Position numbers and translations under genes: made by a program. DNA of 64,000 nucleotides, from the NCBI GenBank assembly GCA_964471535.1, contig CAYYHA010000001.1, positions 6,285 to 70,284 of the forward strand, written 5' to 3'. The stretch comes from an uncultured Myxococcia bacterium. GTDB lineage: Bacteria; Myxococcota; Myxococcia; SLRQ01. The notes under the pieces are model-generated. The model was not told the origin of the DNA and did no database searches. It saw nothing but the letters and a program-made list of their open reading frames with translations. Of the stretch, positions 6,071 through 62,195 are shown one piece after another (the first letter of the stretch is position 1; each line of letters starts with the position of its first letter).

Positions 6071-6838
6071 CTACGTCTCCTGCTGCGTCGGACGAAGCAG
6101 CAGGTCGTGGTACTCGACGTGGGGCGGCGCGGAGAGCACGTGGACGAGGGCGTCGGCGAGGTCCTCGGGGGTGAGGACCGGGTAGCGCCCGTACGCGGCC
6201 GCCTCCGCTTCCAAAGAGCCGTGGTACTTCCGTGCGAACTCGGTGCGGACGAAGCCGGGGGAGAGGGCGGTGACGCGGATACCACTTCCGAGGCTGCGCA
6301 GCTCCCGGCGAAGCGCCTCGGTGAGCGCTCGCACGGCGAACTTGGTCGCGGCGTAGACGCCGCTGCCGTCGGGGACACGGTGGCCAGCCATCGAGGAGAC
6401 GTGCACCACGTGGCCGGCATCGCCGCGGCGGCGCATGTCGGCGACGGCCTCCCGTGTGGCGATGCACAGCGCGAGCACGTTCACTTCGAGCATCTCCCGC
6501 CAAGCGTCGGCGGGCCCCTCGGTGAGGGGCGCCGCGCGTCCGAGCCCGGCATTGTTCACGAGCACGTCGACTCCACCCCACTCGGCACGGATCCGATCGA
6601 AGACGGCCAGGATCTCCTCCTCGCGGCGCAGGTCGGCGCCGATGGCGTAGAACTCACCGCCTGCCGCCGTGATGGCCTCGCCGAGCGATTCGAGGCGGTC
6701 GGTGCGCCGCGCGCACCCTGCCACCAGCAGTCCCTCCTGCGCCAGACGCAGCGCCATGGCGCGGCCGATGCCACTCGAGGCACCGGTGACGAGGGCCACC
6801 TTCCCCCTCCAACGATCCATCCCGGAAGCCGTTGCCAT
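6071..6838 (-). CDS. Short-chain dehydrogenase/reductase (SDR), NAD(P)-dependent
   Basis: It has the glycine-rich motif GKVALVTGASSGIGRA, NNAG and the catalytic YxxxK (YAATKFAV). Confidence 0.9.
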   Translation of the reverse strand: MATASGMDRWRGKVALVTGASSGIGRAMALRLAQEGLLVAGCARRTDRLESLGEAITAAGGEFYAIGADLRREEEILAVFDRIRAEWGGVDVLVNNAGLGRAAPLTEGPADAWREMLEVNVLALCIATREAVADMRRRGDAGHVVHVSSMAGHRVPDGSGVYAATKFAVRALTEALRRELRSLGSGIRVTALSPGFVRTEFARKYHGSLEAEAAAYGRYPVLTPEDLADALVHVLSAPPHVEYHDLLLRPTQQET

Positions 6839-21188: not shown

Positions 21189-21318
21189 ATTTTTTCTCTC
21201 GATCCAAGCTGTTGAAAATACGATACTTTTGGTGGTGGCTTCGGGCCTTTGGAGGCGTTGTCCCACATGAACGCCCGTCCGGTGCATAGGGACGGATCGC
21301 CCGGTGGCCCACCGCCCG

Positions 21319-22461
21319 TCACGGGCTCGCGCTACCCGCTTCGCCTGCGGTGGCCTTCTCGCCCGCGGCCGCCTTCTCGCCCTCGGCCGCCGCGCCCGCC
21401 ACCTTCGCCTGCGCGGCCACATAGGGGGGCCAGAAGGCCAGCGGGTCCTTCACCGCCCGCGGGCGGGGCTCGAAGGGGAGGTGCTCGGGTACCTCGATCG
21501 TAGCCGGGCGGCCGATCCCCTCGAGGGTGCGGGTCAGGTGGATCTCGAGCGTTGCCGGCTCGGGACGCGCGTCCTGTGGCGGGACGACGAGGCGGCCTTC
21601 GATGTCGAAGGCGAGGACCACGCCGGTCAAGCGGTCGACGAGGACCTCTCCGGCAACGCTCACCGGCTCGCCCGCTTCGAAGACGGCCCTGCGGTGGCGA
21701 AGTGCTGCATCGGGTCCGTCCTTCGGGTAGCGCGGCTTGGCGGCCCAGGCGGGCTTCGGCGGCGGGAGCAGCGCGGGGTCGGAGGTCTCTGCCGTCGCGA
21801 GGACGTAGCGCACCGCCCCGCGCCCCTGGTGGGTTGCCGTCCCCATGTTGGCGAGGGTGATCTTCCCGTCGAAGAGTTCGAAGAAGGTGGCGAGCTGGCC
21901 CATCGCCTCCTCCCGCCAGGCCTCGTGTCCCGCGCGGTCGCTGCGGCGCTCGTGGAACTTCCCGTGGCGGCTCTTCACGTAGATGACTCCATCCACGTAG
22001 CGAAGCTCCATCCCGAAGTCCTGGTCGTTGTCGATCTTCACTTGAAAGTCGCCGCTCGCGCTCTGCAGCAGCTCCGCCCGCTCGGAGAGGGAAACTGCGT
22101 CCTTCCCGCGCTTCCAGGTGAACTCCACCTCGTTGATGGCGTGGAAGTCACCGAGCCGGTGGCGCATCTCCACCGCGCGCATGCGCAGGATGCGCCGCCG
22201 CATCGCCGCGTCGGTCGCCACCGCATCGGCGTCGAGGGCCTCGGCGGCCAAGCGCTCCTCCTTCGGTGGCTCCTCCGGCGAGAAGATTCGCTCCTTGGCC
22301 GCCTGATCCTCGCTCGTGGGACAGGAGGAGAGGCAGCCGGACAAAGAGGCGGCCGCGAGCCACAGGGCGGGCAGGCACGCGGCGACGCGGCAGGCCGGCC
22401 GCCTTCCCGCGGTGGGGGGGGCGCACCGGACGGCGCGGGCTTCGCGAGGCGGCGTTGCCAT
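21319..22461 (-). CDS. Hypothetical lipoprotein (380 aa), Ala/Glu/Lys-rich C-terminal tail
   Basis: The internal start MATPPREA... at 22461 is followed by a signal and lipobox (AASLSGCLSSC). The rest of ORF 21319-24264 upstream of this Met is antisense to the acyltransferase and is rejected. Confidence 0.55.
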   Translation of the reverse strand: MATPPREARAVRCAPPTAGRRPACRVAACLPALWLAAASLSGCLSSCPTSEDQAAKERIFSPEEPPKEERLAAEALDADAVATDAAMRRRILRMRAVEMRHRLGDFHAINEVEFTWKRGKDAVSLSERAELLQSASGDFQVKIDNDQDFGMELRYVDGVIYVKSRHGKFHERRSDRAGHEAWREEAMGQLATFFELFDGKITLANMGTATHQGRGAVRYVLATAETSDPALLPPPKPAWAAKPRYPKDGPDAALRHRRAVFEAGEPVSVAGEVLVDRLTGVVLAFDIEGRLVVPPQDARPEPATLEIHLTRTLEGIGRPATIEVPEHLPFEPRPRAVKDPLAFWPPYVAAQAKVAGAAAEGEKAAAGEKATAGEAGSASP

Positions 22462-22605
22462 CGTCGCGCGGTGGTACCATCGCCAGCGCCGGCGAACAAG
22501 CGAGGGCCGGCGCCCGCCGGGCCGCGGCTCGGGCCCGCTGATGCACTTGGGCCGGAGGCCCCCCGGGGCAGCCGCAGAGCGCAAAAAGACGGTAGACTCG
22601 TCGCC

Positions 22606-24186
22606 GTGAGCCAGGCCGGGCAGCACCGCGCCGGGTCCGCGGCCGCGCCCCCGGGGACCGGAGGGAAGGCCCCGGAGGGGGGCGGGGCGAAGCCGGGTCG
22701 CCCCTCGCTCCTGTACCGGGGTTGCCTCTCGCTCTTCCGTCTCCTCGTCAGGGCCTACTTTCGGGAGGTGCGGGTGGTCGGGACCGAAGAGGTCCCCCGC
22801 GATCGAGGGGGGCTCGTCGTCTCCTGGCATCCGAACGGCCTGGTGGACCCAGGCCTCATCCTCACCACCTTTCCCCGGCGCATCGTCTTTGGGGCGCGCC
22901 ACGGCCTCTTCCGGGTCCCACTGCTCGGCGCCTTGATGCGCGCCATCGGGACCATCCCCATCTACCGCGCCATGGACCAGGCGGGGGTGCCCGATGAGGT
23001 GCGCCGAGCCCGAAACCGCGAGAGCCTCGACGCGCTGGCCGCCGAGATCGCCGGAGGTGCGTTCTCGGCGCTCTTCCCCGAGGGGGTGAGCCACGACGAT
23101 CCCCACCTCGCGCCGCTCAGGACGGGTGCAGCGCGGCTCTACTACCGGGCCCGCGCGCTCTCCACGCCCGGGCGGCCGCCCCCGGTGATCGTCCCCGTCG
23201 GTCTCCACTACGACCACAAGCGTTCGTTTCGCTCCCATGCACTGGTCGAGTACCACCCCCCCATCGCCCTTCCCCCGCATCTGGACGTCACGCCGGGGCC
23301 GGAGTGGGGTGAGGCCGAACGCCGCGACCTGGCGCGGGCGTTGACGGAGGAGATCGAGCGTGCCCTCGCCGAGGTGGTGCAGGCGACCGAGGATTGGGAG
23401 GTCCACCACCTCCTCCACCGCGTGCGGAAGATCGTGCGGGCCGAACGAAGCAAGCGGCGGGGCGTCGACCCTGGGCCCAGCGACATCGAGGAGCGGACGC
23501 TCGCCTTCGCACGGGTGCGCACCGCCTACTATGCGCGGGTCGGTCAGGACCCCGAGGGGGTGGCCCGCCTGCGTGACCGCATCCGCGACTACGACGCCGA
23601 TCTGCGGGCCCTTCGGATGGAGGACCACGAGCTCGACCGGCCCCCCGACCTCTTCCGCCCCTGGCTGGCAGCGGCGTTGGCGTTGCAGGTCGTCACGGTC
23701 TTCCTCCTGGTGCCCCCGATCCTCCTGGTGGGCTATGCCGTCAACGGGCCGCCAGCGCTCGTGATCAAGGGGCTGTGCAAGGTGGTGGCCCAGAAGAAGA
23801 AGGACGAGGCGAGCTGGAAGGCGCTCGCCGGTGCCGTGCTCTTTCCACTGACCTGGCTGGGCGTGGGGGCCGCCGGATTCTTCGGCTACGAGCAGCTCCA
23901 CGCGAGCTTTCCAGCGGTGCCCGAGGTGCCCCTCCTCGCCGGCGCGTTGCTCGCGGGGCTCTCGGTGGCCGGTGGCTTCCTGGCCCTGCGCTACCTGCGG
24001 GTGGCCGCCGAAACGGCGCGGGCCCTTCGGGTGCGGCTGACGCGCCGCCGCCGCCGCCAGGCGGTGGCGCGGCTCCTCGCCGAGCGCGCTGCCCTCTACG
24101 ATGCGCTCACGGAGATGGCCGAGGGTCTCGACCTGCCTGGCGCCATCGCTCCCGACGGGACGGTGCGCCGTGCGCCTGTCACGTAA
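22606..24186 (+). CDS. Lysophospholipid/glycerol-3-phosphate acyltransferase family protein (PlsC-like) with long C-terminal polytopic membrane extension
   Basis: The HX4D motif (WHPNGLVDP), FGARHGLF and FPEGVSHDD blocks of PlsC-type acyltransferases are present. The putative GTG start is at 22606. The C-terminal ~220 aa contains several TM helices. Confidence 0.75.
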   Translation: MSQAGQHRAGSAAAPPGTGGKAPEGGGAKPGRPSLLYRGCLSLFRLLVRAYFREVRVVGTEEVPRDRGGLVVSWHPNGLVDPGLILTTFPRRIVFGARHGLFRVPLLGALMRAIGTIPIYRAMDQAGVPDEVRRARNRESLDALAAEIAGGAFSALFPEGVSHDDPHLAPLRTGAARLYYRARALSTPGRPPPVIVPVGLHYDHKRSFRSHALVEYHPPIALPPHLDVTPGPEWGEAERRDLARALTEEIERALAEVVQATEDWEVHHLLHRVRKIVRAERSKRRGVDPGPSDIEERTLAFARVRTAYYARVGQDPEGVARLRDRIRDYDADLRALRMEDHELDRPPDLFRPWLAAALALQVVTVFLLVPPILLVGYAVNGPPALVIKGLCKVVAQKKKDEASWKALAGAVLFPLTWLGVGAAGFFGYEQLHASFPAVPEVPLLAGALLAGLSVAGGFLALRYLRVAAETARALRVRLTRRRRRQAVARLLAERAALYDALTEMAEGLDLPGAIAPDGTVRRAPVT

Positions 24187-24223
24187 GCCCTGCGAAGGCC
24201 TCCTCGTACATGGACCCGATTCG

Positions 24224-25408
24224 TCATGCGTCTTCTGAGGTCGTACTCGAGGCGCCACTTCCATCCGAGAGATCTGGCGGTGACTGCTCGCTCTCGGCGT
24301 GGGCCTCGCGGATCGAGATCGTGTCGACGAGCGATCTCCAAGTCTCGTGGACGCGGCGGCAGTACTCGAGGAAGGGACCGAGGCGATCGAGGGTGAGCGC
24401 CTGGGGTCCGTCGCAGAGCGCCTCGGACGGGGCGGGATGGAAGTCGACGAGGACGCAGGTGGCCCCAGCGATGAGGCCCTGCCCGGTTACGTGAAAGATA
24501 TCCGGCAGCCCGTCGGGGGCCACCGCGGCGCGACCGACGCTGTGAGAGGGATCGATGCACACGGGCAGGCGCGTCTGCCGGCGCACGACGGGGACGTGGC
24601 CGAAGTCCACCAGGTTGCGGTGGGGATCTCCGAGGTGGGTCTTCACGCCCCGCAGGCAGAAGACGATGTTGGGGTTGCCCTCGGTGGCGACGTACTCGGC
24701 GGCGTTCAGCGACTCCTCGAGGGTGATCCCCATCCCGCGCTTGAAGAGCACCGGGAACGCCCGCTGCTGTCCCACCTGGCGCAGGAGCTCGAAGTTCTGG
24801 GCGTTGCGGGTGCCGATCTGCACCATGACACCAGTGGGCTGCCCCGCCTCTTCGAGCGCCCGGGCGATCTCCTCGAGATGCCGCGCGTCGGTGACCTCCA
24901 TGGCGATGACCCGGATGCCGTACTTGCCCGCCAGCTCGAAGACCCAGGGGAGGCAGGCGGCGCCGAGGCCTTGGAAGTCATAGGGGCTGGTGCGCGGCTT
25001 GTAGGCCCCCATGCGTGTGGTCGTCACCCCGTGCTCGGCGAGTGCCGCGAGCATCGCCTCCACGTGCGCCGGCGTGTCGACGGCACAGAGCCCCGCGAGG
25101 ACGTTGAGGGTGCGCCGGTCGAAGGTGACGCCGTTGTAGGTGAACCCAAGGTCTCGGGCATCGGCTTCGTGGCGGCCGATGAGCCGGTACTTGTGGGAGA
25201 CGCGCACCACCTGCAGCACGCCGGGGAGCGCTGCAAAGGGCTCCTTGGGGACCAGGCGGGTGTTGCCGATGAGGTGGATTTCCACCACCCGCTCCTGAGC
25301 GCCCTCGAAGTCGTAGCGCCGGGTGCGCACCCCGGGATGCCGGCGGGCGATCCCTTCGACCGCCGCCACCGTCTCTTCGGAGGCGCTGGGATCGATGGTG
25401 ATGATCAC
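24224..25408 (-). CDS. 3-deoxy-7-phosphoheptulonate (DAHP) synthase, type I-beta with N-terminal ferredoxin-like regulatory domain
   Basis: The putative GTG start is at 25408 (VIITIDPSASEE..., resembling the N-terminus of Thermotoga-type DAHPS). KYRLIGR, KPRTSPYDFQG and the TIM-barrel KDO8PS-like core are present. Confidence 0.85.
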   Translation of the reverse strand: MIITIDPSASEETVAAVEGIARRHPGVRTRRYDFEGAQERVVEIHLIGNTRLVPKEPFAALPGVLQVVRVSHKYRLIGRHEADARDLGFTYNGVTFDRRTLNVLAGLCAVDTPAHVEAMLAALAEHGVTTTRMGAYKPRTSPYDFQGLGAACLPWVFELAGKYGIRVIAMEVTDARHLEEIARALEEAGQPTGVMVQIGTRNAQNFELLRQVGQQRAFPVLFKRGMGITLEESLNAAEYVATEGNPNIVFCLRGVKTHLGDPHRNLVDFGHVPVVRRQTRLPVCIDPSHSVGRAAVAPDGLPDIFHVTGQGLIAGATCVLVDFHPAPSEALCDGPQALTLDRLGPFLEYCRRVHETWRSLVDTISIREAHAESEQSPPDLSDGSGASSTTSEDA

Positions 25409-25500
25409 GGCGGGCGAGAATACACCACCGCGGCGGGTGGAGGTGTTGGGCCCGGCCGCCACCCTCCCGGCGCCCCGGGGCCCTGGGGTAGGGTGCCGCC

Positions 25501-26415
25501 ATGGCGCGGGCACCCTGGATGGTCTCGATGCACGGGGGTCACAGCTTCCCCTTCTGCGATCACGCGATGGGCGCCCTCGAGGACACCGTCGAGGCGGCCG
25601 AGGAGGCGGGCTTTCGTGTCTACGGTCTCACCGAGCACGCACCCCGGCTCGACGACCGCTTCCTCTATCCCACCGAGCGCGCCCGGGGGTGGAACGCCGC
25701 ACGGCTGGCCGAGCACTTCGACGAATGGGCGGAGCTCTCCGCCGAGCTGCTCTCGCAGTGGAGGGGAGAGACGCGGCTCCTGCGAGGCATCGAGGTGGAG
25801 GTGGTCCCGGCACAGACGTGGCTCGAGTCGGTGCGGGCGCTGGTGGACCGGCACCGCCTCGACTACGTGGTGGGTGCGGTGCACCACGTGCGCGAGATCC
25901 CCATCGACGGCAACGAGAAGGACTTCGCGCGGGCGGTGGAGGCGGCGGGTGGGGTGGAGCGATTGGCAGTGGAGTTCTACAAGGCCACCGGCGAGATGGT
26001 CACTGCGCTGAAGCCTGAGGTGGTGGCCCACTTCGATCTCATCCGCCTCCGGGCGGCGCGGGTGGGAAAGATCAACACCCCGTCGGTCCGGGAGGCGGCG
26101 CGGGCGGCGCTCCGGGCGGTGCAGGCGGCCGGGAGCATGCTCGAGGTGGGTGCCGGTGCGCTGCGCCGGGGCTGGCGCATTCCCTATCCCGCACCGTGGG
26201 TGCTGGAGATGGCGCTCGAACTCGGGGTGCCGCTGACCCTTGGAGACGGGAGCCACGCCGTCTTCGAGGTGGGGGACGGCATGGACGCGCTGCGCACCTA
26301 TCTCCTTGCTCGGGGGGTCGAGACCGTCCACTTTCTCGACCGTGCCGAAGATGGCCGCATCGTGCGCAAGAGCGCATCTCTCGAGCCTCCCCTCGAGCCA
26401 GCCCCGGGCGGCTAA
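25501..26415 (+). CDS. PHP-family histidinol-phosphatase (HisJ/HisK type)
   Basis: MVSMHGGHSFPFCDHA...GLTEHAP...VVGAVHHV matches the metal-binding His/Asp pattern of the PHP domain. The start may be at 25519 (MVSMHGG). Confidence 0.8.
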   Translation: MARAPWMVSMHGGHSFPFCDHAMGALEDTVEAAEEAGFRVYGLTEHAPRLDDRFLYPTERARGWNAARLAEHFDEWAELSAELLSQWRGETRLLRGIEVEVVPAQTWLESVRALVDRHRLDYVVGAVHHVREIPIDGNEKDFARAVEAAGGVERLAVEFYKATGEMVTALKPEVVAHFDLIRLRAARVGKINTPSVREAARAALRAVQAAGSMLEVGAGALRRGWRIPYPAPWVLEMALELGVPLTLGDGSHAVFEVGDGMDALRTYLLARGVETVHFLDRAEDGRIVRKSASLEPPLEPAPGG

Positions 26416-26520
26416 GCGGCGGGGCAGGTGCCGCGCCTTCCGGCGCGCCCGCCGGGGAGCGGGGGCGCGAGCACAGCGCCCCCCGGGCGGGCGCGGGCCA
26501 CCCCGGCTGCGTGCCCTTCG

Positions 26521-26549
26521 TTGACGTGGCCCGGGCCTCCCCCTATCTA
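26521..26549 (+). promoter_or_regulatory. Sigma70-like promoter TTGACG-N17-TATCTA immediately upstream of the KamA-family gene, implying a leaderless or near-leaderless transcript
   Basis: TTGACG lies at 26521-26526 and TATCTA at 26544-26549. The ATG is at 26560, only about 4-6 nt after the predicted TSS, and I see no Shine-Dalgarno. Confidence 0.35.
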
Positions 26550-26559
26550 ATCGCCCGCG

Positions 26560-27945
26560 ATGGCACGAGAAACGAACGACGCCCGAGCCGCGCTGCCCTC
26601 GGCTCCCGAGCAGCCCTTCGAGTACCCCCTGAAGACGCCCTTCGAGGAGCCCGATTGGCGGCGCATTCCCGCCTATCGCGCGGTGAGCCGTGAGGAGTGG
26701 GAGAGCGCGCGGTGGCAGCGCCGGCACACGGTCAAGAACCTGAAAGAGCTGAAGGAGACGCTCGGCGAGCTTTTGCCCGAGGACCTTCTCGAGAGCATCG
26801 CGGCGGACCAAGCGCGCATGGCGACCATGTCCATCCTCGTCCCCCCGCAGATGCTCAATACGATGAACTTCGACGACCTGTGGAACGACCCGGTGCGTCG
26901 CTACATGCTTCCGGCCCTCGCCGACAGGCATCCCGAGTGGCCGAGTCATCCCAAGGCCGAGCGCGACAGTCTGCACGAGGCCGACATGTGGGCGGTCGAG
27001 GGACTCACCCACCGCTACCCCACGAAGGTCCTCGCCGAGATGCTGCCCACCTGTCCGCAATATTGCGGCCATTGCACGCGCATGGATCTCGTGGGGAACG
27101 ACGTGCCGCAGGTGAAGAAGACGCGCTTCACCCTGAAGCCGGCGAGTCGCTACGAGGCGATGCTCGAGTACATCCGCAACACGCCGATGATCCGCGACGT
27201 CGTCGTCTCGGGGGGCGACGTGGCCAACCTGCCCATCGATCGCCTGGTCGACTTCGTCTCGCGACTGATGGAGATCCCGCACATTCGCGACATCCGGCTC
27301 GCTTCCAAGGGGATGGCCGGCATCCCACAGCACTTCCTGCAGGACGAGGTGCTGCGTGGCCTCGAGACGCTCGCCAAGAAGGCGCGCGAACACGACGTCG
27401 ACATCGCGCTGCACACGCACATCAATGCGGCGCAGCAAGTGACGCCGCTGGTGGCGAAGGTGGCGGAGAAGCTCCTCGACATGGGCTTCAGGGACGTGCG
27501 CAACCAGGGGGTGCTCCTGCGGGGAACGAACACCACGCCCGAGCAGCTCCTCGAGCTGTGCTTCCGCCTCCTCGATGACGGCAACATCATGCCGTACTAC
27601 TTCTACATGTGCGACATGATCCCCAACTCGGAGCACTGGCGGCTCGCCGTGCACGAGGCACAGAAGCTGCAGCACGACATCATGGGCTATCTGCCCGGCT
27701 ACGCGACGCCGCGTCTTTTGTGCGATGTGCCCTTCGTGGGCAAGCGCTGGGTGCACCAGACCGATGCCTACGACCGCACCCGTGGCATCTCCTACTGGAC
27801 GAAGAACTACCGCACCCTGGTAGAGCGCGACGATCCCGAGGCGCTCACGCGGCAGTACCCCTACTACGATCCGGTCTACACCCTTCCCGAGGAAGGGCAG
27901 GCCTACTGGCGAGAGAGAGTGCAGGAGGCCGGCACCGGGGCATGA
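26560..27945 (+). CDS. KamA-family radical SAM aminomutase (lysine 2,3-aminomutase-like)
   Basis: The CPQYCGHCTR radical SAM CxxxCxxC cluster is present, and the sequence is colinear with lysine 2,3-aminomutase (PLP-binding region ...SGGD... and C-terminal domain). At 461 aa it is of KamA length, not the shorter EpmB. Confidence 0.85.
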   Translation: MARETNDARAALPSAPEQPFEYPLKTPFEEPDWRRIPAYRAVSREEWESARWQRRHTVKNLKELKETLGELLPEDLLESIAADQARMATMSILVPPQMLNTMNFDDLWNDPVRRYMLPALADRHPEWPSHPKAERDSLHEADMWAVEGLTHRYPTKVLAEMLPTCPQYCGHCTRMDLVGNDVPQVKKTRFTLKPASRYEAMLEYIRNTPMIRDVVVSGGDVANLPIDRLVDFVSRLMEIPHIRDIRLASKGMAGIPQHFLQDEVLRGLETLAKKAREHDVDIALHTHINAAQQVTPLVAKVAEKLLDMGFRDVRNQGVLLRGTNTTPEQLLELCFRLLDDGNIMPYYFYMCDMIPNSEHWRLAVHEAQKLQHDIMGYLPGYATPRLLCDVPFVGKRWVHQTDAYDRTRGISYWTKNYRTLVERDDPEALTRQYPYYDPVYTLPEEGQAYWRERVQEAGTGA

Positions 27946-29149
27946 GCACGGCGCGCTCCTCGTGGAAGGTGCGCGGCGCTTCTCCTCGAGGGTCGCGTTC
28001 GATGTGCACACCGATCCGCCCCAGGGTGCGCCCGTCGCTGGTTTCGATGGACACCCGCCACTCTCCCTCGCGCCAGTGCTCCTTGTAGGCGAAGGCGCGG
28101 TAGCCGGCTTCGCGGCCACCGGTGATCTTCATCCGGATGCGGTCGGTGCGCGTCCAGCCCGTCTTGGGATGGTCGTACTCCCAGACCATGTAGATCGAGT
28201 CCTGGAACTCGGCCGGCGCGAAGATGCGAGCGAAGATCCACACGCGATCCCCGGGGCGGGCATAGAAATGCTGGTCGCCCTCCTCGAAGAAGCGCCAGGC
28301 GGGCTTCTCGTGCCGGAGCACGTAGTGATCGCCGGCGCGTTCCACGTGGTGGTAGACGCCGAGATGTCGGACAGACAGGGGCACGGGAGGCACGGCATCG
28401 AGCACGAAGAGGGCGACGAGGCCGGCCTGTACCGCCGCGCCGGGGAGCGCGGCGCGCTTCCAGCCCAGGCGGCGCTCGCCGGACCACCGGCTCAATAGCT
28501 GTGCGCCGCCTAGGGAGACAGCGAGCGCGAGTCCCGCGGAGAGGAAGAACCACCAGCGGGAGAGGCGACCGGCGAGGACGGGGAGCAGGTAGGCGAGGAA
28601 GGAGGTCAGGCAGAAGGAGAAGAGGGCGAGGCGCACCACCGGTCCGAGGCGGCGCACCTCGGGCAGCTCGTTCCCGATGAGCAGGGCGAAGACCACCGCC
28701 ATGAAGAGGACGGTGGACAGGTGGGAGGCGCTGCGCAGGTAGAAGAGAGAGTAGGCGGAGAGAAGACTGCCTAGAAGGAAGTGGATCGCGTCCTCACGGA
28801 AGGGCCAGAGGGGCTCGAGGAGGCGGGGCAGCTTCGGCTGGGCAAGCTCCGCCCACTGCTCGACGAGGAGGAGTGCGGCGAGGAGGAAGAGGTAGGCGCC
28901 CTGCATCGCGAGGGTCATCGCATCGTCGATGCGGCCCAAGGTGAACACGTCGAAGAGGAAGCCAGCGGTGAAGAAGAGGGCGATCTCGAGGCGGGGGTGC
29001 GCCTCACGGAGCGTTTGCACGCGTCCTGTGACCGCGGCGAGCCGCGGGGGGAGCCGCAGCCGGCCCCTGCCCTCTTGGGTCTCGGGCGGCGTCGCCGCTT
29101 CCGACCTCTCGCCGGCCTGCGGCGAAGGGTCTCTCTCCTCGACCTCCAT
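27845..29149 (-). CDS. Membrane protein with N-terminal polytopic domain and C-terminal DUF2914-like soluble domain
   Basis: It has at least 6 TM helices. The C-terminal block YHHVERAGDHYVLRHE...WIFARIFAPAEFQDSIYMVWEYDHP...WRVSIETSDGRTLGRIGVHIER I recall as DUF2914. The last ~100 nt overlap the convergent KamA gene. Confidence 0.6.
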   Translation of the reverse strand: MEVEERDPSPQAGERSEAATPPETQEGRGRLRLPPRLAAVTGRVQTLREAHPRLEIALFFTAGFLFDVFTLGRIDDAMTLAMQGAYLFLLAALLLVEQWAELAQPKLPRLLEPLWPFREDAIHFLLGSLLSAYSLFYLRSASHLSTVLFMAVVFALLIGNELPEVRRLGPVVRLALFSFCLTSFLAYLLPVLAGRLSRWWFFLSAGLALAVSLGGAQLLSRWSGERRLGWKRAALPGAAVQAGLVALFVLDAVPPVPLSVRHLGVYHHVERAGDHYVLRHEKPAWRFFEEGDQHFYARPGDRVWIFARIFAPAEFQDSIYMVWEYDHPKTGWTRTDRIRMKITGGREAGYRAFAYKEHWREGEWRVSIETSDGRTLGRIGVHIERDPRGEAPRTFHEERAVLMPRCRPPALSLASRPALPREGCRPDRSRGTAA

Positions 29150-29263
29150 GCGCCCGAAGATACACGAGTGCGCCCCTTGCCGATTCCCCGCCGTGGCGCA
29201 GCCATTTGACCGCCAAGGCGCCTCGCCGTAAGAGGCGCCAGCTTTCGGAGGAGGATCCGGGTC

Positions 29264-30475
29264 ATGTTGCGGAGGCGTGCGGTTGCGGGTGGAGCGTGGA
29301 ACTTGGATTGGGGAGGTCGCAGGGCCCTAAAGCCCGCACTGCGGCGCTGCGGTCCGGCCCTGGGCCTGCTCCTTACGCTGATCCTCTTGCCCGGGCGTGC
29401 GCAGGGGGGGCCTGCGCAGGCCGAGCCGAGTTCCGAATCCGCGGCCAAGCCGGCGGCGGAGCCTGGCGAGAGCAGGCACGACGCTCCAGAGGAGGAGGCA
29501 AAGGAGGAGAAGGAACCGGGCCGCGCTGCGGCACCGGCGGCCACGGGCCAAGGCGGCGGTGCGCTGGGGGAGGACAGTCTCGCCGAGGCCCTGCGCGCCG
29601 CGGCGGCAGCGGCCGAGGCGGCACGTGAGGCGGCGGAGGCGGCGCGGGCGGCGGCGGAGGCGAGCCGCCGCGCCGCCGAGGCCCTGGCGGGGAAGGCGGA
29701 GGCGACCTCGGACGCGCAGGAGACACCCACAGGGGCGCAGACGGGGGACGAAGGGGCGAAGAAGGAGACGCCCGCAGGGCCCTCCGCGTGGAGCTACCAG
29801 CTCGGCTTGAGCTTCATCTCGGTCACCGGCAACGCCAACGCGGTGACGGGCAAGGTCAGCGGCCTGGCCAGCGGAAGCTGGGCGAAGTGGCGGGTGAAGT
29901 TCGAGGGCGGCGGTGCCTATGGACAGGCGACCAACGGGCTCTCCGAAGTGACCGCCCTCAACGGGAACTTGAGTGCGCGCGGCGACCGTCGCCTCGGGCC
30001 GAAGTTCACCGTCTACCTCACCGGCGGTCTCGCCACCGACCACGTGGCCAGCATCGAGCTGCAGTACTTCGGTGAGCCGGGGCTCTCGCTCCTCTGGTGG
30101 GAGGAGAAGGAAGCGAAGTTCGTCCGCAGCTCCCTCCAGACCGATCTCGGCTTTCGGCTCACCCGCGAGAGCCGCTTCCAGTACTTCCCCGTGCCCAGGG
30201 ACCTCGATGACAAGGACATCTATGCCCCGCGTCTGGCCCTCTCCTTCCGCTACGCCCTGACCCGCCGGGCCGTCTTCACCGAAGAGGCGGAGATCCTCCC
30301 CGACATCGTCGACACCAAGAACGTGCGGGCGACCAGCACCTCCACTCTGACTGCCCAGATCGTCGAAGGAGTGGGCATCACCGTCTCGTTCAAGGTGCGT
30401 CACATCGGGGCGCCCGCGGAAGGCAAGGTGCCCACGGATACCGAGCTGGCGGCGGGTGTCTCCTGGACCTTCTGA
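29264..30475 (+). CDS. Outer-membrane beta-barrel protein, DUF481/YdiY-like, with Ala-rich coiled N-terminal region
   Basis: It has a signal peptide and an Ala/Glu-rich low-complexity stretch, then alternating beta-strand pattern ending ...VSWTF with a C-terminal Phe (OMP signature). The SYQLGLSFISVTGNAN block is typical of DUF481. Confidence 0.65.
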   Translation: MLRRRAVAGGAWNLDWGGRRALKPALRRCGPALGLLLTLILLPGRAQGGPAQAEPSSESAAKPAAEPGESRHDAPEEEAKEEKEPGRAAAPAATGQGGGALGEDSLAEALRAAAAAAEAAREAAEAARAAAEASRRAAEALAGKAEATSDAQETPTGAQTGDEGAKKETPAGPSAWSYQLGLSFISVTGNANAVTGKVSGLASGSWAKWRVKFEGGGAYGQATNGLSEVTALNGNLSARGDRRLGPKFTVYLTGGLATDHVASIELQYFGEPGLSLLWWEEKEAKFVRSSLQTDLGFRLTRESRFQYFPVPRDLDDKDIYAPRLALSFRYALTRRAVFTEEAEILPDIVDTKNVRATSTSTLTAQIVEGVGITVSFKVRHIGAPAEGKVPTDTELAAGVSWTF

Positions 30476-30607
30476 CGGAGATCGCGCCCGACACAGGTAT
30501 CCCTGGAGGGAAGCGCCGGAGCGTCGTACGGGGGCGAGGTGGCTCGACAACACCCACCCCGCTCTCTACCGTGGATCGAGACGCGACCGACTCCGCGAGA
30601 CGACGCC

Positions 30608-61474: not shown

Positions 61475-61739
61475 TGCCGTCAGACCGGGCTCGGGGCGGA
61501 CTCGATGGCGAGGCATCGACTGCCTCCGGTCCCGTGCGTTGACAAGCCCAAGGGGCGCTTTACCTTCGCGGCTGAGTCGAGGCGGACGAGGATGCGCCGG
61601 TCGTTCGGGCGAGCGGTCCCGGGCCGGTCGGATGGCGCGGGCGCTCGGGACAGGGGCGTTCGTGCGGGCGGCCGTAGCGGCGGCGCATTCCCGCCGGCCG
61701 CACCGGTACACCTGTATCCACTGAAAGGAGGAGATTGCG

Positions 61740-62195
61740 ATGCTGACCCGATGGAACGATTTCGGATTCCAGAGTCCGCTGCTGGCGCTCGAGGACTTCC
61801 GCCGGCAGATGGACCAATTCTTCGACACCTACGAACGAGCCGCCTGGCCGCGGGCCGCGCGGACCTTCGAGGGGCCGCGGACCACCCTCTTCGATGCGGG
61901 GGATGCCTTCGTCGTGAAGGCGGAAGTGCCGGGCCTCTCCGAGAACGACCTCCAGATCGATCTGACCGGGGACGTGCTGACCCTCCGCGGCGAGCGGAAG
62001 GCCGAGGTCCCCGAGGGCTGGTCGGTTCATCGGCGGGAGCGCACCGACTGGAAGTTCAGCCGGAGCTTCACCCTGCCGGCGAAGGTCGACCCGGAGAAGA
62101 CCAGCGCCACGCTGAAGAACGGCATCCTGACGATCACCCTGGAGAAGGCCCCCGAAACGCGCCCGCGACGGATCGCGGTCAAGGGCGAGCACTGA
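61740..62195 (+). CDS. Hsp20/alpha-crystallin family small heat-shock protein
   Basis: The RBS AAAGGAGGAG is followed by the alpha-crystallin domain (FDAGDAFVVKAEVPGLSENDLQIDLTGDVLTLRGER...LKNGILTITL). Confidence 0.9.
   Translation: MLTRWNDFGFQSPLLALEDFRRQMDQFFDTYERAAWPRAARTFEGPRTTLFDAGDAFVVKAEVPGLSENDLQIDLTGDVLTLRGERKAEVPEGWSVHRRERTDWKFSRSFTLPAKVDPEKTSATLKNGILTITLEKAPETRPRRIAVKGEH

What the first reader, a model, noticed from the sequence alone, without database searches (positions are those of the whole stretch)
26521..29149. KamA-family radical SAM aminomutase with leaderless promoter, convergently overlapping a DUF2914-like membrane protein; no canonical partner gene
The aminomutase has the CPQYCGHC cluster and is of full lysine 2,3-aminomutase length. 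It lacks the usual neighbours: the beta-lysine acetyltransferase ablB, the EF-P lysyl-transferase epmA, and lysine-fermentation genes. A near-consensus TTGACG-N17-TATCTA promoter sits so close to the ATG (about 5 nt) that the transcript would be leaderless. The convergent membrane/DUF2914 gene overlaps its 3' end by about 100 nt. The substrate and role of this aminomutase here are open.
Basis: partly seen in the sequence, partly recalled or inferred. Interest (0 to 1): 0.55.

Follow-up and report, generated by a model that had tools for sequence, protein, structure and literature searches.

The report
Stand-alone divergent lysine 2,3-aminomutase gene
This is a real but fairly ordinary gene for a divergent radical-SAM lysine 2,3-aminomutase (the counterpart of Myxococcus xanthus MXAN_4699); its missing partner, near-leaderless promoter and tail overlap with its neighbour are typical of its clade and of this GC-rich genome.

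Summary
ORF 26560-27945 (+, 461 aa) carries CPQYCGHC, a TTGACG-N17-TATCTA element ends 10 nt before its only possible start codon, and the convergent DUF2914 ORF (27845-29149, -) overlaps it by 101 nt.

The protein belongs to a large clade ("K1") that is 65-76% identical across Myxococcota, Acidobacteriota, Actinomycetota, Gemmatimonadota and Elusimicrobiota. It scores below every curated KamA-family cut-off, including EpmB. It lacks the zinc site and the LAM_C domain of clostridial lysine 2,3-aminomutase. It keeps the three cluster cysteines, the SGGD motif, the PLP lysine, and the Arg and two Asp residues that I recall as lysine-binding.

In eight Actinomycetota genomes K1 is the only KamA homologue in an Lrp|K1-kdd-amidohydrolase-kamD-kamE operon, so L-lysine to beta-lysine is the likely reaction. 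In Myxococcota it usually precedes a canonical paralogue (the MXAN_4699/4698 operon). That paralogue is absent from this window.

The promoter boxes are conserved in the one close relative with enough upstream sequence. Leaderless geometry is common in this window (8 of 40 genes). The overlap is an unconstrained DUF2914 tail.

Verdict: a new member of a known kind. The clade has no biochemistry and the role of the gene here is unknown. Interest is low to moderate.

The parts
26521..26526 (+). -35-like hexamer TTGACG
   Evidence: Read directly. Conserved as TTGACT in relative L083 while the flanking bases differ. TTGACN-N16-18-TANNN[A/T] occurs only 3 times in the window against 0.5 expected.
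26544..26549 (+). -10-like hexamer TATCTA. It lies 17 nt after the -35 box and 10 nt before the ATG. An alternative register is TCTAAT at 26546-26551.
   Evidence: Read directly. CCCCTATCTA plus 10 nt to the ATG is identical in spacing in L081, L082 and L083. It matches TATAAT at only 3 of 6 positions and is not called by the consensus scan. The 10 nt before the ATG contain no Shine-Dalgarno-like purine run.
26560..27945 (+). K1: coding sequence for a divergent KamA-family PLP/radical-SAM 2,3-aminomutase (461 aa), the counterpart of M. xanthus MXAN_4699
   Evidence: ORF. NCBIfam KamA-family hits are all below cut-off. The best solved structure is 2A5H lysine 2,3-aminomutase, E 3e-46 and Foldseek E 2e-14. 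At least 8000 homologues were scored; the 120 listed are 71-89% identical. GC3 is 0.88, like its neighbours.
27052..27075 (+). CPQYCGHC, the CxxxCxxC ligands of the [4Fe-4S] cluster (C165, C169, C172)
   Evidence: Read directly. The three cysteines are invariant in all aligned family members.
27613..27615 (+). D352, aligned with Asp293 of the 2A5H enzyme (recalled as binding the lysine epsilon-amino group)
   Evidence: Pairwise HMMER alignment. Invariant in the K1 clade. Asp in all but three members of the wider Zn-less group, which have Glu. The role of the residue is from my memory of the 2A5H structure paper.
27724..27726 (+). D389, aligned with Asp330 of the 2A5H enzyme (second residue recalled as binding the epsilon-amino group)
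27742..27744 (+). K395, the PLP-binding lysine (Lys337 of the 2A5H enzyme) in the motif DVPFVGKRW
27845..27945 (.). 101-nt tail-to-tail overlap of the two coding sequences
   Evidence: ORF coordinates. The same 101-nt overlap is called in L081, L082 and L083. On the K1 strand it encodes the clade-conserved LTRxYxYYDPxYTLPxxGQxxWR. On the other strand it encodes a tail that varies in its middle among the three relatives.
27845..29149 (-). Coding sequence for a membrane protein with a C-terminal DUF2914 domain (434 aa)
   Evidence: ORF. Pfam PF11141 at residues 317-379, E 2e-11, above gathering score. 70-77% identical orthologues sit in the same position in L081-L083.
28013..28201 (-). DUF2914 domain (residues 317-379)
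   Evidence: Strongly conserved in the three-way alignment.
29157..29162 (-). TATCTT, a -10-like hexamer 7 nt upstream of the DUF2914 ATG (leaderless geometry)

Best explanation
The gene 26560-27945 encodes a PLP- and [4Fe-4S]/SAM-dependent amino-acid 2,3-aminomutase of a divergent KamA clade (K1). This clade lacks the zinc site and the LAM_C domain of the clostridial enzyme. Its most likely reaction is L-lysine to beta-lysine (3,6-diaminohexanoate) by the known mechanism. In that mechanism the reduced cluster cleaves SAM to a 5'-deoxyadenosyl radical. The radical abstracts the C3 hydrogen of lysine held as an aldimine on PLP. The amino group then migrates from C2 to C3. Where relatives give context, K1 is the entry step of lysine catabolism. 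In this organism it stands alone, so the fate of the beta-lysine is not shown. The gene appears to have its own sigma-70-type promoter (TTGACG-N17-TATCTA) that would give an mRNA with a leader of about 0-4 nt and no Shine-Dalgarno sequence. Many genes of this genome share that arrangement. Its last 101 nt are also read on the opposite strand as a non-conserved C-terminal extension of the DUF2914 gene, because that frame meets no stop codon earlier.

Shown: the family, the catalytic residues, the operon links in relatives, conservation of the promoter boxes, and the overlap.
Inferred: the substrate, the catabolic role, the transcription start, and the lack of function of the tail.
For: Family and residues:
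- The best solved relative is lysine 2,3-aminomutase 2A5H (E 3e-46; Foldseek E 2e-14).
- C165/C169/C172, R174, S217-G218-G219-D220, D352, D389 and K395 align with the corresponding residues of 2A5H. They are invariant in the K1 clade. Their roles in the 2A5H enzyme are from my memory of the structure paper, not checked here.

Context in relatives:
- In Actinomycetota loci L026, L030, L046, L072 and L078 the K1 gene (65-71% identical) is followed directly by kdd, an amidohydrolase-like gene, kamD and kamE.
- L017, L035 and L048 show the same order as far as each contig runs.
- NCBIfam scores for the L078 genes are above cut-off: kdd 233 vs 200, kamD 763 vs 600, kamE 325 vs 280.
- A divergent Lrp/AsnC regulator sits upstream.
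- K1 is the only KamA homologue in those loci.
- The published pathway needs a lysine 2,3-aminomutase upstream of KamDE and Kdd (PMC3149608).
- Five Gemmatimonadota loci and Actinomycetota L018 place K1 beside some or all of a class-III aminotransferase, an aldehyde dehydrogenase, a CoA-transferase and a GntR or Lrp regulator. This also looks catabolic.

Promoter:
- TTGAC and CCCCTATCTA, and the 10-nt distance to the ATG, are kept in L083 while the surrounding bases differ. L081 and L082 keep the -10 box and the distance, but their contigs end before the -35 region.
- No Shine-Dalgarno sequence is present.
- ATG 26560 is the only usable start.
- TANNNT lies 6-10 nt before the start codon in 8 of 40 window genes, against 0.19 expected.
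- No Rfam riboswitch lies upstream.

Overlap:
- The same 101 nt overlap is present in three independent assemblies.
- The conserved part of the DUF2914 protein ends at the K1 stop codon.
Against: - No member of the K1 clade has been assayed. The only experimental paper found concerns a swarming phenotype of MXAN_4699 mutants.
- The protein scores below the curated cut-offs of every KamA-family model, including the general subfamily model (176 vs 199).
- It lacks the zinc-site cysteines and the LAM_C domain.
- Myxococcota usually keep K1 in an operon with a near-canonical lysine 2,3-aminomutase paralogue. This argues that the two are not simply redundant.
- The window holds no gene that consumes beta-lysine.
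- The -10 box lacks the conserved final T, and its 10-nt gap is longer than the 6-7 nt typical of the leaderless-looking genes in this window.
- No 5'-end data exist.
- The upstream same-strand gene ends only 144 nt away, with no convincing terminator between them.
Confidence: 0.68

Rival explanations
1. K1 is an aminomutase with a different job from canonical lysine 2,3-aminomutase. It could use another basic amino acid such as ornithine, arginine or D-lysine. It could make the opposite beta-lysine enantiomer, as I recall E. coli EpmB does. Or it could work only as a hetero-oligomer with the K2 paralogue.
For: - It scores below all curated equivalog cut-offs.
- It has a distinct, cysteine-free C-terminal domain and no zinc site.
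- It has K1-specific insertions after the cluster motif and at PQHFLQD.
- In about 15 Myxococcota loci it is co-operonic with a near-canonical paralogue that also carries both Asp residues.
- In M. xanthus, disrupting MXAN_4699 together with MXAN_4698 gave a different phenotype from disrupting MXAN_4698 alone.
Against: - The residues aligned to the recalled lysine-binding Arg and Asp pair are invariant.
- K1 is the only candidate 2,3-aminomutase in eight kdd-kamDE operons, whose chemistry needs L-beta-lysine.
- K1 occurs without K2 in most phyla and in this window, so an obligate heteromer is unlikely.
Confidence: 0.2
2. It is an EpmB-type enzyme that supplies beta-lysine for modification of elongation factor P.
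For: It belongs to the same superfamily. EpmB genes can also stand apart from their partners.
Against: - The EpmB model scores lowest but one of the six KamA-family models (124 bits, cut-off 369).
- It is 24% identical to E. coli EpmB and sits on a different branch of the neighbour-joining tree.
- No epmA or efp lies in the window or in any of the homologous loci held.
- At 461 aa it is much longer than EpmB (342 aa) and has an extra C-terminal domain.
Confidence: 0.02
3. The gene is not leaderless. It is mainly transcribed with a long leader from a distal promoter or by read-through from the HisJ-family gene 144 nt upstream, and the TTGACG/TATCTA boxes are fortuitous or minor.
For: - The -10 box matches the consensus at 3 of 6 positions and lacks the final T, and the consensus scan finds no promoter.
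- The upstream gene is on the same strand.
- The intergenic RNA fold is no more stable than shuffled sequence, and no terminator is called between the two genes.
- Two Myxococcota orthologues (L019, L076) have a clear GGAGG before their start codons.
Against: - The boxes and their spacing are conserved in L083 against diverged flanks. L081 and L082 keep the -10 box and its distance to the ATG.
- The pattern is rare in the window.
- There is no Shine-Dalgarno sequence to serve a leadered mRNA.
- Leaderless geometry is frequent in this genome.
- Several other Myxococcota orthologues carry an AT-rich hexamer 6-10 nt before the ATG.
Confidence: 0.3

Closest known systems
Clostridium subterminale SB4 lysine 2,3-aminomutase (PDB 2A5H; NCBIfam TIGR03820 AblA/KamA type)
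   Same: - Same fold, and the best structural and sequence match.
- CxxxCxxC cluster motif, SGGD motif and PLP lysine are all present.
- The Arg and two Asp residues I recall as contacting the lysine carboxylate and epsilon-amino group are also present.
- Orthologues occupy the kamA position of lysine-degradation operons.
   Different: - Only about 31% identical.
- TIGR03820 scores 174 bits against a cut-off of 525.
- Cys268 of the 2A5H chain aligns to Thr, and there are no cysteines after the PLP lysine. The zinc site I recall for that enzyme (Cys268 plus a C-terminal CxCxxC) is therefore absent.
- There is no Pfam LAM_C. It is replaced by a conserved domain with the motif GKRWVHQ..YDR..GISYWTKNYR....YxYYDP.YTLP..GQ..WR.
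- It has an 8-residue insertion after the cluster motif and a PQHFLQDxVL insertion.
Myxococcus xanthus MXAN_4699, first gene of the MXAN_4699/4698 operon
   Same: - Same clade by inference. Myxococcaceae members are 456 aa and 71-73% identical to the window protein.
- They are followed by a paralogue about 23-30% identical, as the paper describes.
- They carry the annotation 'lysine 2,3-aminomutase'.
   Different: - The window gene has no MXAN_4698-like paralogue downstream or anywhere in the 64 kb.
- Its neighbours differ: HisJ-family phosphatase and DUF2914, instead of a Ser/Thr kinase and K2.
- I did not hold the DK1622 sequence itself, so orthology rests on close Myxococcus, Pyxidicoccus and Stigmatella homologues.
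Escherichia coli EpmB (YjeK), the EF-P beta-lysylation aminomutase
   Same: Same superfamily, cluster motif and PLP chemistry. It likewise has no C-terminal cysteine motif.
   Different: - 24% identical.
- The EpmB model is far below its cut-off.
- EpmB is 342 aa and sits beside efp. Here no efp or epmA is present.
Leaderless genes as described in Actinomycetota and Deinococcus (own knowledge)
   Same: A -10-like box lies a few nucleotides upstream of an ATG with no Shine-Dalgarno sequence. The same geometry recurs in 8 of 40 genes of this window.
   Different: The box of this gene is TATCTA, not TANNNT. It lies 10 nt from the ATG rather than 6-7 nt, so a 1-4 nt leader is as likely as a true +1 ATG. 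No 5'-end data exist.

Membership tests
KamA family (PLP-dependent radical-SAM 2,3-aminomutases) | CxxxCxxC motif ligating the [4Fe-4S] cluster | tested here: met
   CPQYCGHC at residues 165-172. The cysteines are invariant in all aligned relatives.
KamA family (PLP-dependent radical-SAM 2,3-aminomutases) | PLP-binding lysine (Lys337 of 2A5H) and the SGGD SAM-binding motif | tested here: met
   K395 in DVPFVGKRW and S217-G218-G219-D220.
KamA family (PLP-dependent radical-SAM 2,3-aminomutases) | Score at or above the curated cut-off of the subfamily model TIGR00238 | tested here: not met
   175.9 bits against a cut-off of 199.2. The hit is highly significant (E 1e-51) but below the trusted score. 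Pfam finds only a sub-threshold Radical_SAM hit.
KamA family (PLP-dependent radical-SAM 2,3-aminomutases) | Closest solved structure is a KamA-family enzyme | tested here: met
   2A5H is the only PDB sequence hit (E 3e-46) and the top Foldseek hit (E 2e-14). The model itself is of modest quality (pLDDT 63).
Lysine 2,3-aminomutase proper (AblA/KamA equivalog TIGR03820) | Score at or above the equivalog cut-off | tested here: not met
   174.3 bits against 525.4. The Myxococcota paralogue K2 reaches 475.
Lysine 2,3-aminomutase proper (AblA/KamA equivalog TIGR03820) | Lysine-binding residues: Arg134 (carboxylate) and Asp293 and Asp330 (epsilon-amino). The roles are from my recall of the 2A5H structure paper. 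| tested here: met
   R174, D352 and D389 align to them and are invariant in the clade.
Lysine 2,3-aminomutase proper (AblA/KamA equivalog TIGR03820) | Inter-subunit zinc site (Cys268 plus C-terminal CxCxxC, from recall) and the LAM_C domain | tested here: not met
   Cys268 aligns to Thr326. There are no cysteines after K395. No Pfam LAM_C hit.
Lysine 2,3-aminomutase proper (AblA/KamA equivalog TIGR03820) | Genomic link to genes that use beta-lysine (kamDE, kdd, ablB) | tested here: inconclusive
   Met for orthologues in eight Actinomycetota loci. Not met in this window.
Lysine 2,3-aminomutase proper (AblA/KamA equivalog TIGR03820) | Conversion of L-lysine to beta-lysine in vitro | not testable with these tools
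   No assay of any K1 member was found in the literature searched.
EpmB (EF-P beta-lysylation) | Equivalog score, and co-occurrence with epmA or efp | tested here: not met
   123.9 bits against 369.3. No epmA or efp in the window or in any K1 locus. 24% identity to E. coli EpmB.
Glutamate 2,3-aminomutase | Equivalog score. Basic or amide residues (Lys and Asn, from my recall of the Ruzicka and Frey paper) replace the two Asp residues. | tested here: not met
   127 bits against 650. Both positions are Asp.
Arginine 2,3-aminomutase (BlsG type) | Equivalog score | tested here: not met
   142.8 bits against 600. Specificity residues for this family were not examined.
Leaderless mRNA gene | Promoter -10 box placed so that transcription starts at or within a few nt of the start codon, with no Shine-Dalgarno sequence | tested here: inconclusive
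   TATCTA ends 10 nt before the ATG and no Shine-Dalgarno sequence is present. The arrangement is conserved in L081-L083. The box is weak and the gap is longer than the genome's modal 6 nt.
Leaderless mRNA gene | Mapped primary 5' end at the start codon | not testable with these tools
   No transcript data are available. The literature search found none for this gene family.

The most novel reading that the evidence does not exclude
The K1 clade may be a functionally distinct aminomutase rather than a sequence variant of lysine 2,3-aminomutase. The clade lacks the zinc site and LAM_C, misses Pfam's gathering score, and is 65-76% conserved across five bacterial phyla. More distant relatives (35-39% identical) occur in filamentous fungi. 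A different stereochemistry, substrate range or oligomeric state would explain why Myxococcota keep it beside a canonical paralogue. It could also mark an undescribed aerobic route of lysine breakdown through beta-lysine, using a class-III aminotransferase, an aldehyde dehydrogenase and a CoA-transferase, as the Gemmatimonadota and L018 clusters suggest. On this reading the stand-alone copy here would make a beta-amino acid for a purpose not yet known.
Probability: 0.18. Interest if true: 0.6.

Novelty: new member of a known kind. Interest (0 to 1): 0.3.

Why it matters
For this window it matters little. The gene is one more copy of a very common soil-bacterial orthologue already annotated as lysine 2,3-aminomutase, and the three features that drew attention turn out to be normal for the clade or the genome.

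The wider clade has some value. No curated model covers it, it lacks the zinc site and C-terminal domain of the only solved enzyme, and it has no published biochemistry. Yet it appears to be the main lysine 2,3-aminomutase of several abundant soil phyla. One mutated member affects predatory swarming in M. xanthus. A single enzyme assay would allow thousands of annotations to be confirmed or corrected. It would also clarify whether aerobic soil bacteria break down lysine through beta-lysine.

Tried and rejected
- Conserved partner across phyla: I clustered six-frame ORFs of 80 homologous genome loci. Apart from shadow ORFs of the gene itself, no cluster reached more than 16 of 80 loci. A universal partner is rejected.
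- EF-P link: tblastn with E. coli EpmA and EF-P found nothing in the window or in any locus.
- Riboswitch or other structured leader: Rfam found nothing in the whole window at gathering score, and nothing in 26300-26700 at E up to 1. The intergenic RNA folds no better than shuffled sequence (z = 0.36).
- Consensus promoter scan: none found in 25400-29400, because the scan requires T at the last -10 position. The call therefore rests on conservation, not on consensus strength.
- Terminator for the DUF2914 gene inside K1 (27831 to 27809, - strand, flagged): the fold is no better than shuffles and is not conserved in L081 or L083. Rejected.
- Structure prediction: the alignment of close homologues was too shallow (mean pLDDT 63, active-site loops below 50). 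It served only to confirm 2A5H as the nearest fold. Nothing could be said about the new C-terminal domain.
- Literature: searches for the enzyme in Myxococcus and Actinobacteria, for MXAN_4699, and for leaderless transcripts in M. xanthus gave one relevant preprint with genetics only.
- K1-DUF2914 functional link: the adjacency exists only in the three closest relatives, so no functional coupling is proposed.
- I ran no further search on the DUF2914 protein, because the three-way comparison already settled the nature of its tail.


Full report
**What is in the sequence**

The window is 70% G+C. ORF 26560-27945 (+) encodes 461 aa with CPQYCGHC at residues 165-172. ATG 26560 is the first start codon after the upstream in-frame stop. 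No other ATG, GTG or TTG lies before the clade-conserved QPFxYPL motif at residue 18, so the start is fixed.

TTGACG (26521-26526) and TATCTA (26544-26549) are separated by 17 nt. TATCTA ends 10 nt before the ATG.

The convergent ORF 27845-29149 (-) encodes 434 aa with a Pfam DUF2914 domain at residues 317-379 (E 2e-11). It overlaps the first ORF by 101 nt.

The other neighbours are a DAHP synthase (-), a HisJ-family PHP phosphatase (+, ending 144 nt upstream) and a DUF481 protein (+).
- The -10 box matches the consensus at only 3 of 6 positions and lacks the final T, so the consensus scan calls no promoter.
- The distance to the ATG is 10 nt rather than about 5.

**Which aminomutase it is**

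Every NCBIfam KamA-family model hits the protein, but all fall below their curated cut-offs:

| Model | Score (bits) | Cut-off (bits) |
|---|---|---|
| General subfamily (TIGR00238) | 176 | 199 |
| Lysine 2,3-aminomutase, AblA type | 174 | 525 |
| AblA-like 2 | 148 | 396 |
| Arginine 2,3-aminomutase | 143 | 600 |
| Glutamate 2,3-aminomutase | 127 | 650 |
| EpmB | 124 | 369 |

Pfam gives only a sub-threshold Radical_SAM hit and no LAM_C. The only solved relative is Clostridium subterminale lysine 2,3-aminomutase 2A5H (E 3e-46). A modest AlphaFold model (pLDDT 63) also finds 2A5H first.

The protein is nevertheless far from an orphan. At least 8000 homologues were scored, and the 120 best are 71-89% identical and 448-507 aa long. 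A genome scan found 597 loci. The best 80 come from Myxococcota, Acidobacteriota, Actinomycetota, Gemmatimonadota and Elusimicrobiota, at 65-75% identity. I call this clade K1.

In the library clustered at 50% identity, K1 collapses to a few representatives. The next tier is 32-39% identical over the full length. That tier includes Pezizomycotina fungi (Zalerion, Plenodomus, Ceratocystis).

All these proteins share a cysteine-poor C-terminal domain of the type GKR..H..YD..G.S.....Y.YFDP. A neighbour-joining tree without support values places K1 as a tight clade inside this group. K1 is separate from the 2A5H/K2 branch and far from E. coli EpmB, to which it is 24% identical.

**Catalytic and specificity residues**

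The following are invariant across K1 and the wider group:
- the three cluster cysteines
- R174 (Arg134 of 2A5H)
- S217-G218-G219-D220
- D352 (Asp293; three members of the wider group have Glu)
- D389 (Asp330)
- K395 (Lys337, the PLP lysine)

From my memory of the 2A5H structure paper, Arg134 binds the substrate carboxylate and the two Asp residues bind the lysine epsilon-amino group. Also from memory, glutamate 2,3-aminomutases replace the two Asp residues by Lys and Asn. K1 keeps both Asp residues.

The zinc site I recall for 2A5H (Cys268 plus a C-terminal CxCxxC) is missing. Cys268 aligns to Thr, and no cysteine follows the PLP lysine.

K1 also has an 8-residue insertion after the cluster motif and a PQHFLQDxVL insertion.

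**Genomic context in relatives**

No neighbour is shared across phyla. Three lineage-specific contexts stand out.

(a) Actinomycetota, eight loci.
- In L026, L030, L046, L072 and L078, K1 is the first gene of Lrp/AsnC | K1 - kdd - amidohydrolase-like - kamD - kamE.
- L017, L035 and L048 show the same order as far as each contig runs.
- In L078 the kdd, kamD and kamE genes all score above their NCBIfam equivalog cut-offs.
- These loci hold no other KamA homologue.
- In the established lysine fermentation pathway, lysine 2,3-aminomutase makes beta-lysine. KamDE converts it to 3,5-diaminohexanoate, and Kdd oxidises that (PMC3149608).
- K1 therefore sits exactly where kamA belongs.

(b) Five Gemmatimonadota loci and Actinomycetota L018. 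K1 lies beside some or all of a class-III aminotransferase, an aldehyde dehydrogenase, a CoA-transferase and a GntR or Lrp regulator. This again looks catabolic.

(c) About 15 Myxococcota loci. K1 is followed on the same strand by a second paralogue, K2.
- K2 is roughly 365-400 aa, carries CSVYCRHC, GGGGK and Pfam LAM_C, and is near-canonical (TIGR00238 337 bits against 199; AblA model 475 against 525).
- This is the MXAN_4699/MXAN_4698 operon of M. xanthus.
- A 2026 preprint reports that MXAN_4699 (456 aa) was mutated in two populations adapted to Bacillus subtilis prey.
- The same preprint reports that disrupting it lowered the evolved predatory swarming, whereas disrupting MXAN_4698 alone did not on B. 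subtilis. It gives no biochemistry.

The window has none of these partners within 64 kb. Its two nearest relatives (89% identical; L081/L082 and L083) share the window's arrangement K1 | DUF2914 | DUF481.

**Most likely function**

The conserved residues and context (a) make L-lysine to beta-lysine the best-supported reaction (confidence about 0.7). A catabolic entry step is the best-supported role where context exists. In this organism the role is not shown. The remaining pathway genes could lie elsewhere in the genome, or the beta-lysine could serve another purpose.

The main rival (about 0.2) is that K1 differs from canonical enzymes in substrate, stereochemistry or assembly. That would explain why it coexists with K2 in Myxococcota.

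**Promoter and leader**

- The relaxed pattern TTGACN-N16-18-TANNN[A/T] occurs three times in the window against 0.5 expected, and one copy sits right before this ATG.
- In L083 the upstream sequence reads TTGACT-N18-TATCTA-N10-ATG. The boxes and the 10-nt distance are conserved while the other bases differ.
- L081 and L082 keep CCCCTATCTA-N10-ATG, but their contigs end before the -35 region.
- The 10 nt before the ATG contain no Shine-Dalgarno sequence.
- No riboswitch or stable structure lies upstream.
- Other Myxococcota orthologues mostly carry an AT-rich hexamer 6-10 nt before the ATG. For example, L032, L034 and L051 have TTCAA(G/C)-N17-CATAGG-N6-ATG. Two orthologues (L019, L076) have a clear GGAGG instead.

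This geometry is not special to the gene. TANNNT lies 6-10 nt before the predicted start in 8 of 40 window genes against 0.19 expected, with a peak at 6 nt. These include the upstream HisJ-family gene (TAGGGT-N6-ATG) and the DUF2914 gene (TATCTT-N7-ATG).

A leaderless or 1-4-nt-leader transcript is therefore plausible (about 0.6-0.7). It is an ordinary trait of this genome, and it remains untested.

**The overlap**

- The 101-nt overlap is identical in length in three independent assemblies.
- On the K1 strand it encodes the clade-conserved C-terminal motif.
- On the other strand the DUF2914 protein is well conserved up to ...ERDPRG.APR.F.EE.A. That point coincides with the K1 stop codon.
- The tail is then variable, and it ends in DRSRGTAA only because that stretch is the antisense of K1's conserved ALTRQY.
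- The overlap is therefore best read as an unconstrained extension in a frame that has no earlier stop, which is common in high-G+C DNA.
- A terminator-like hairpin flagged just beyond the DUF2914 stop is neither more stable than shuffles nor conserved.

**Verdict**

The gene is a new member of a known kind: a stand-alone copy of the MXAN_4699-type clade of the KamA family, most likely a lysine 2,3-aminomutase. The features that made it look unusual are normal for the clade or the genome. The clade as a whole is uncharacterised and deserves an enzyme assay, which gives the finding low to moderate interest (0.3).

Noticed in passing
window: starts at 6838(-), 25501(+), 57682(-), 17380(-), 29149(-), 6938(+), 3871(-), 46011(-): TANNNT hexamers lie 6-10 nt upstream of the predicted start codon in 8 of 40 genes (0.19 expected), with a sharp peak at 6 nt and no Shine-Dalgarno sequence in most of them. 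This suggests that about a fifth of the genes in this genome are leaderless.
   Followed up: partly
L078:7419-14298 (also L017, L026, L030, L035, L046, L048, L072): Actinomycetota operon Lrp/AsnC | K1 - kdd - amidohydrolase-like (about 510 aa) - kamD - kamE. The amidohydrolase-like gene is conserved between kdd and kamD, matches no curated family above cut-off, and has no role that I know of in the classical lysine fermentation pathway. L072 also has a short ORF after kamE that I guessed, from its sequence by eye only, might be a Kal-type lyase.
   Followed up: partly
L066:6103-10890, L067:6165-12390, L050, L059, L068; L018:7396-14842: In Gemmatimonadota and one Actinomycetota locus, K1 sits with some or all of a GntR(FCD) or Lrp regulator, a class-III aminotransferase, an aldehyde dehydrogenase and a CoA-transferase. 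This could be an undescribed aerobic route for beta-lysine breakdown.
   Followed up: partly
L006:8004-10576 and about 14 other Myxococcota loci (L001, L008, L009, L012, L015, L019, L032, L034, L038, L041, L047, L051, L076, L084): K1 is paired with a near-canonical KamA paralogue K2 (the MXAN_4699/4698 arrangement). Both carry the two Asp residues, so why two lysine-type aminomutases are kept together is unexplained. The window and its nearest relatives have lost K2 or moved it elsewhere.
   Followed up: partly
P0186 (Zalerion maritima), P0193 (Plenodomus lindquistii), P0196/P0278/P0279 (Ceratocystis spp.): Filamentous ascomycetes encode full-length relatives (35-39% identical, 531-556 aa) of the Zn-less KamA group, with all catalytic residues. 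They are annotated as lysine 2,3-aminomutase or as hypothetical proteins.
   Followed up: no
window 21304-24264: Two ORFs of 960 aa (+) and 981 aa (-) overlap almost completely on opposite strands. By eye, the C-terminal half of the + ORF has an acyltransferase-like HPNGLVD motif, and the C-terminal half of the - ORF looks like a real secreted protein. The region probably holds two shorter convergent genes plus shadow ORFs.
   Followed up: no
L081:3766-5241 compared with window 30475-30540: The 89%-identical relative has a sigma-54 activator response regulator between DUF481 and the small response regulator/Hpt pair. By ORF layout the window appears to lack it, but I did not search for it directly.
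   Followed up: no
window 61539-61566 (+) and 21188-21161 (-): These are the only other two matches in the window to TTGACN-N16-18-TANNN[A/T]. By their positions relative to the gene list, both precede genes that have ordinary leaders and Shine-Dalgarno sequences (starts at 61740 + and 21049 -).
   Followed up: no
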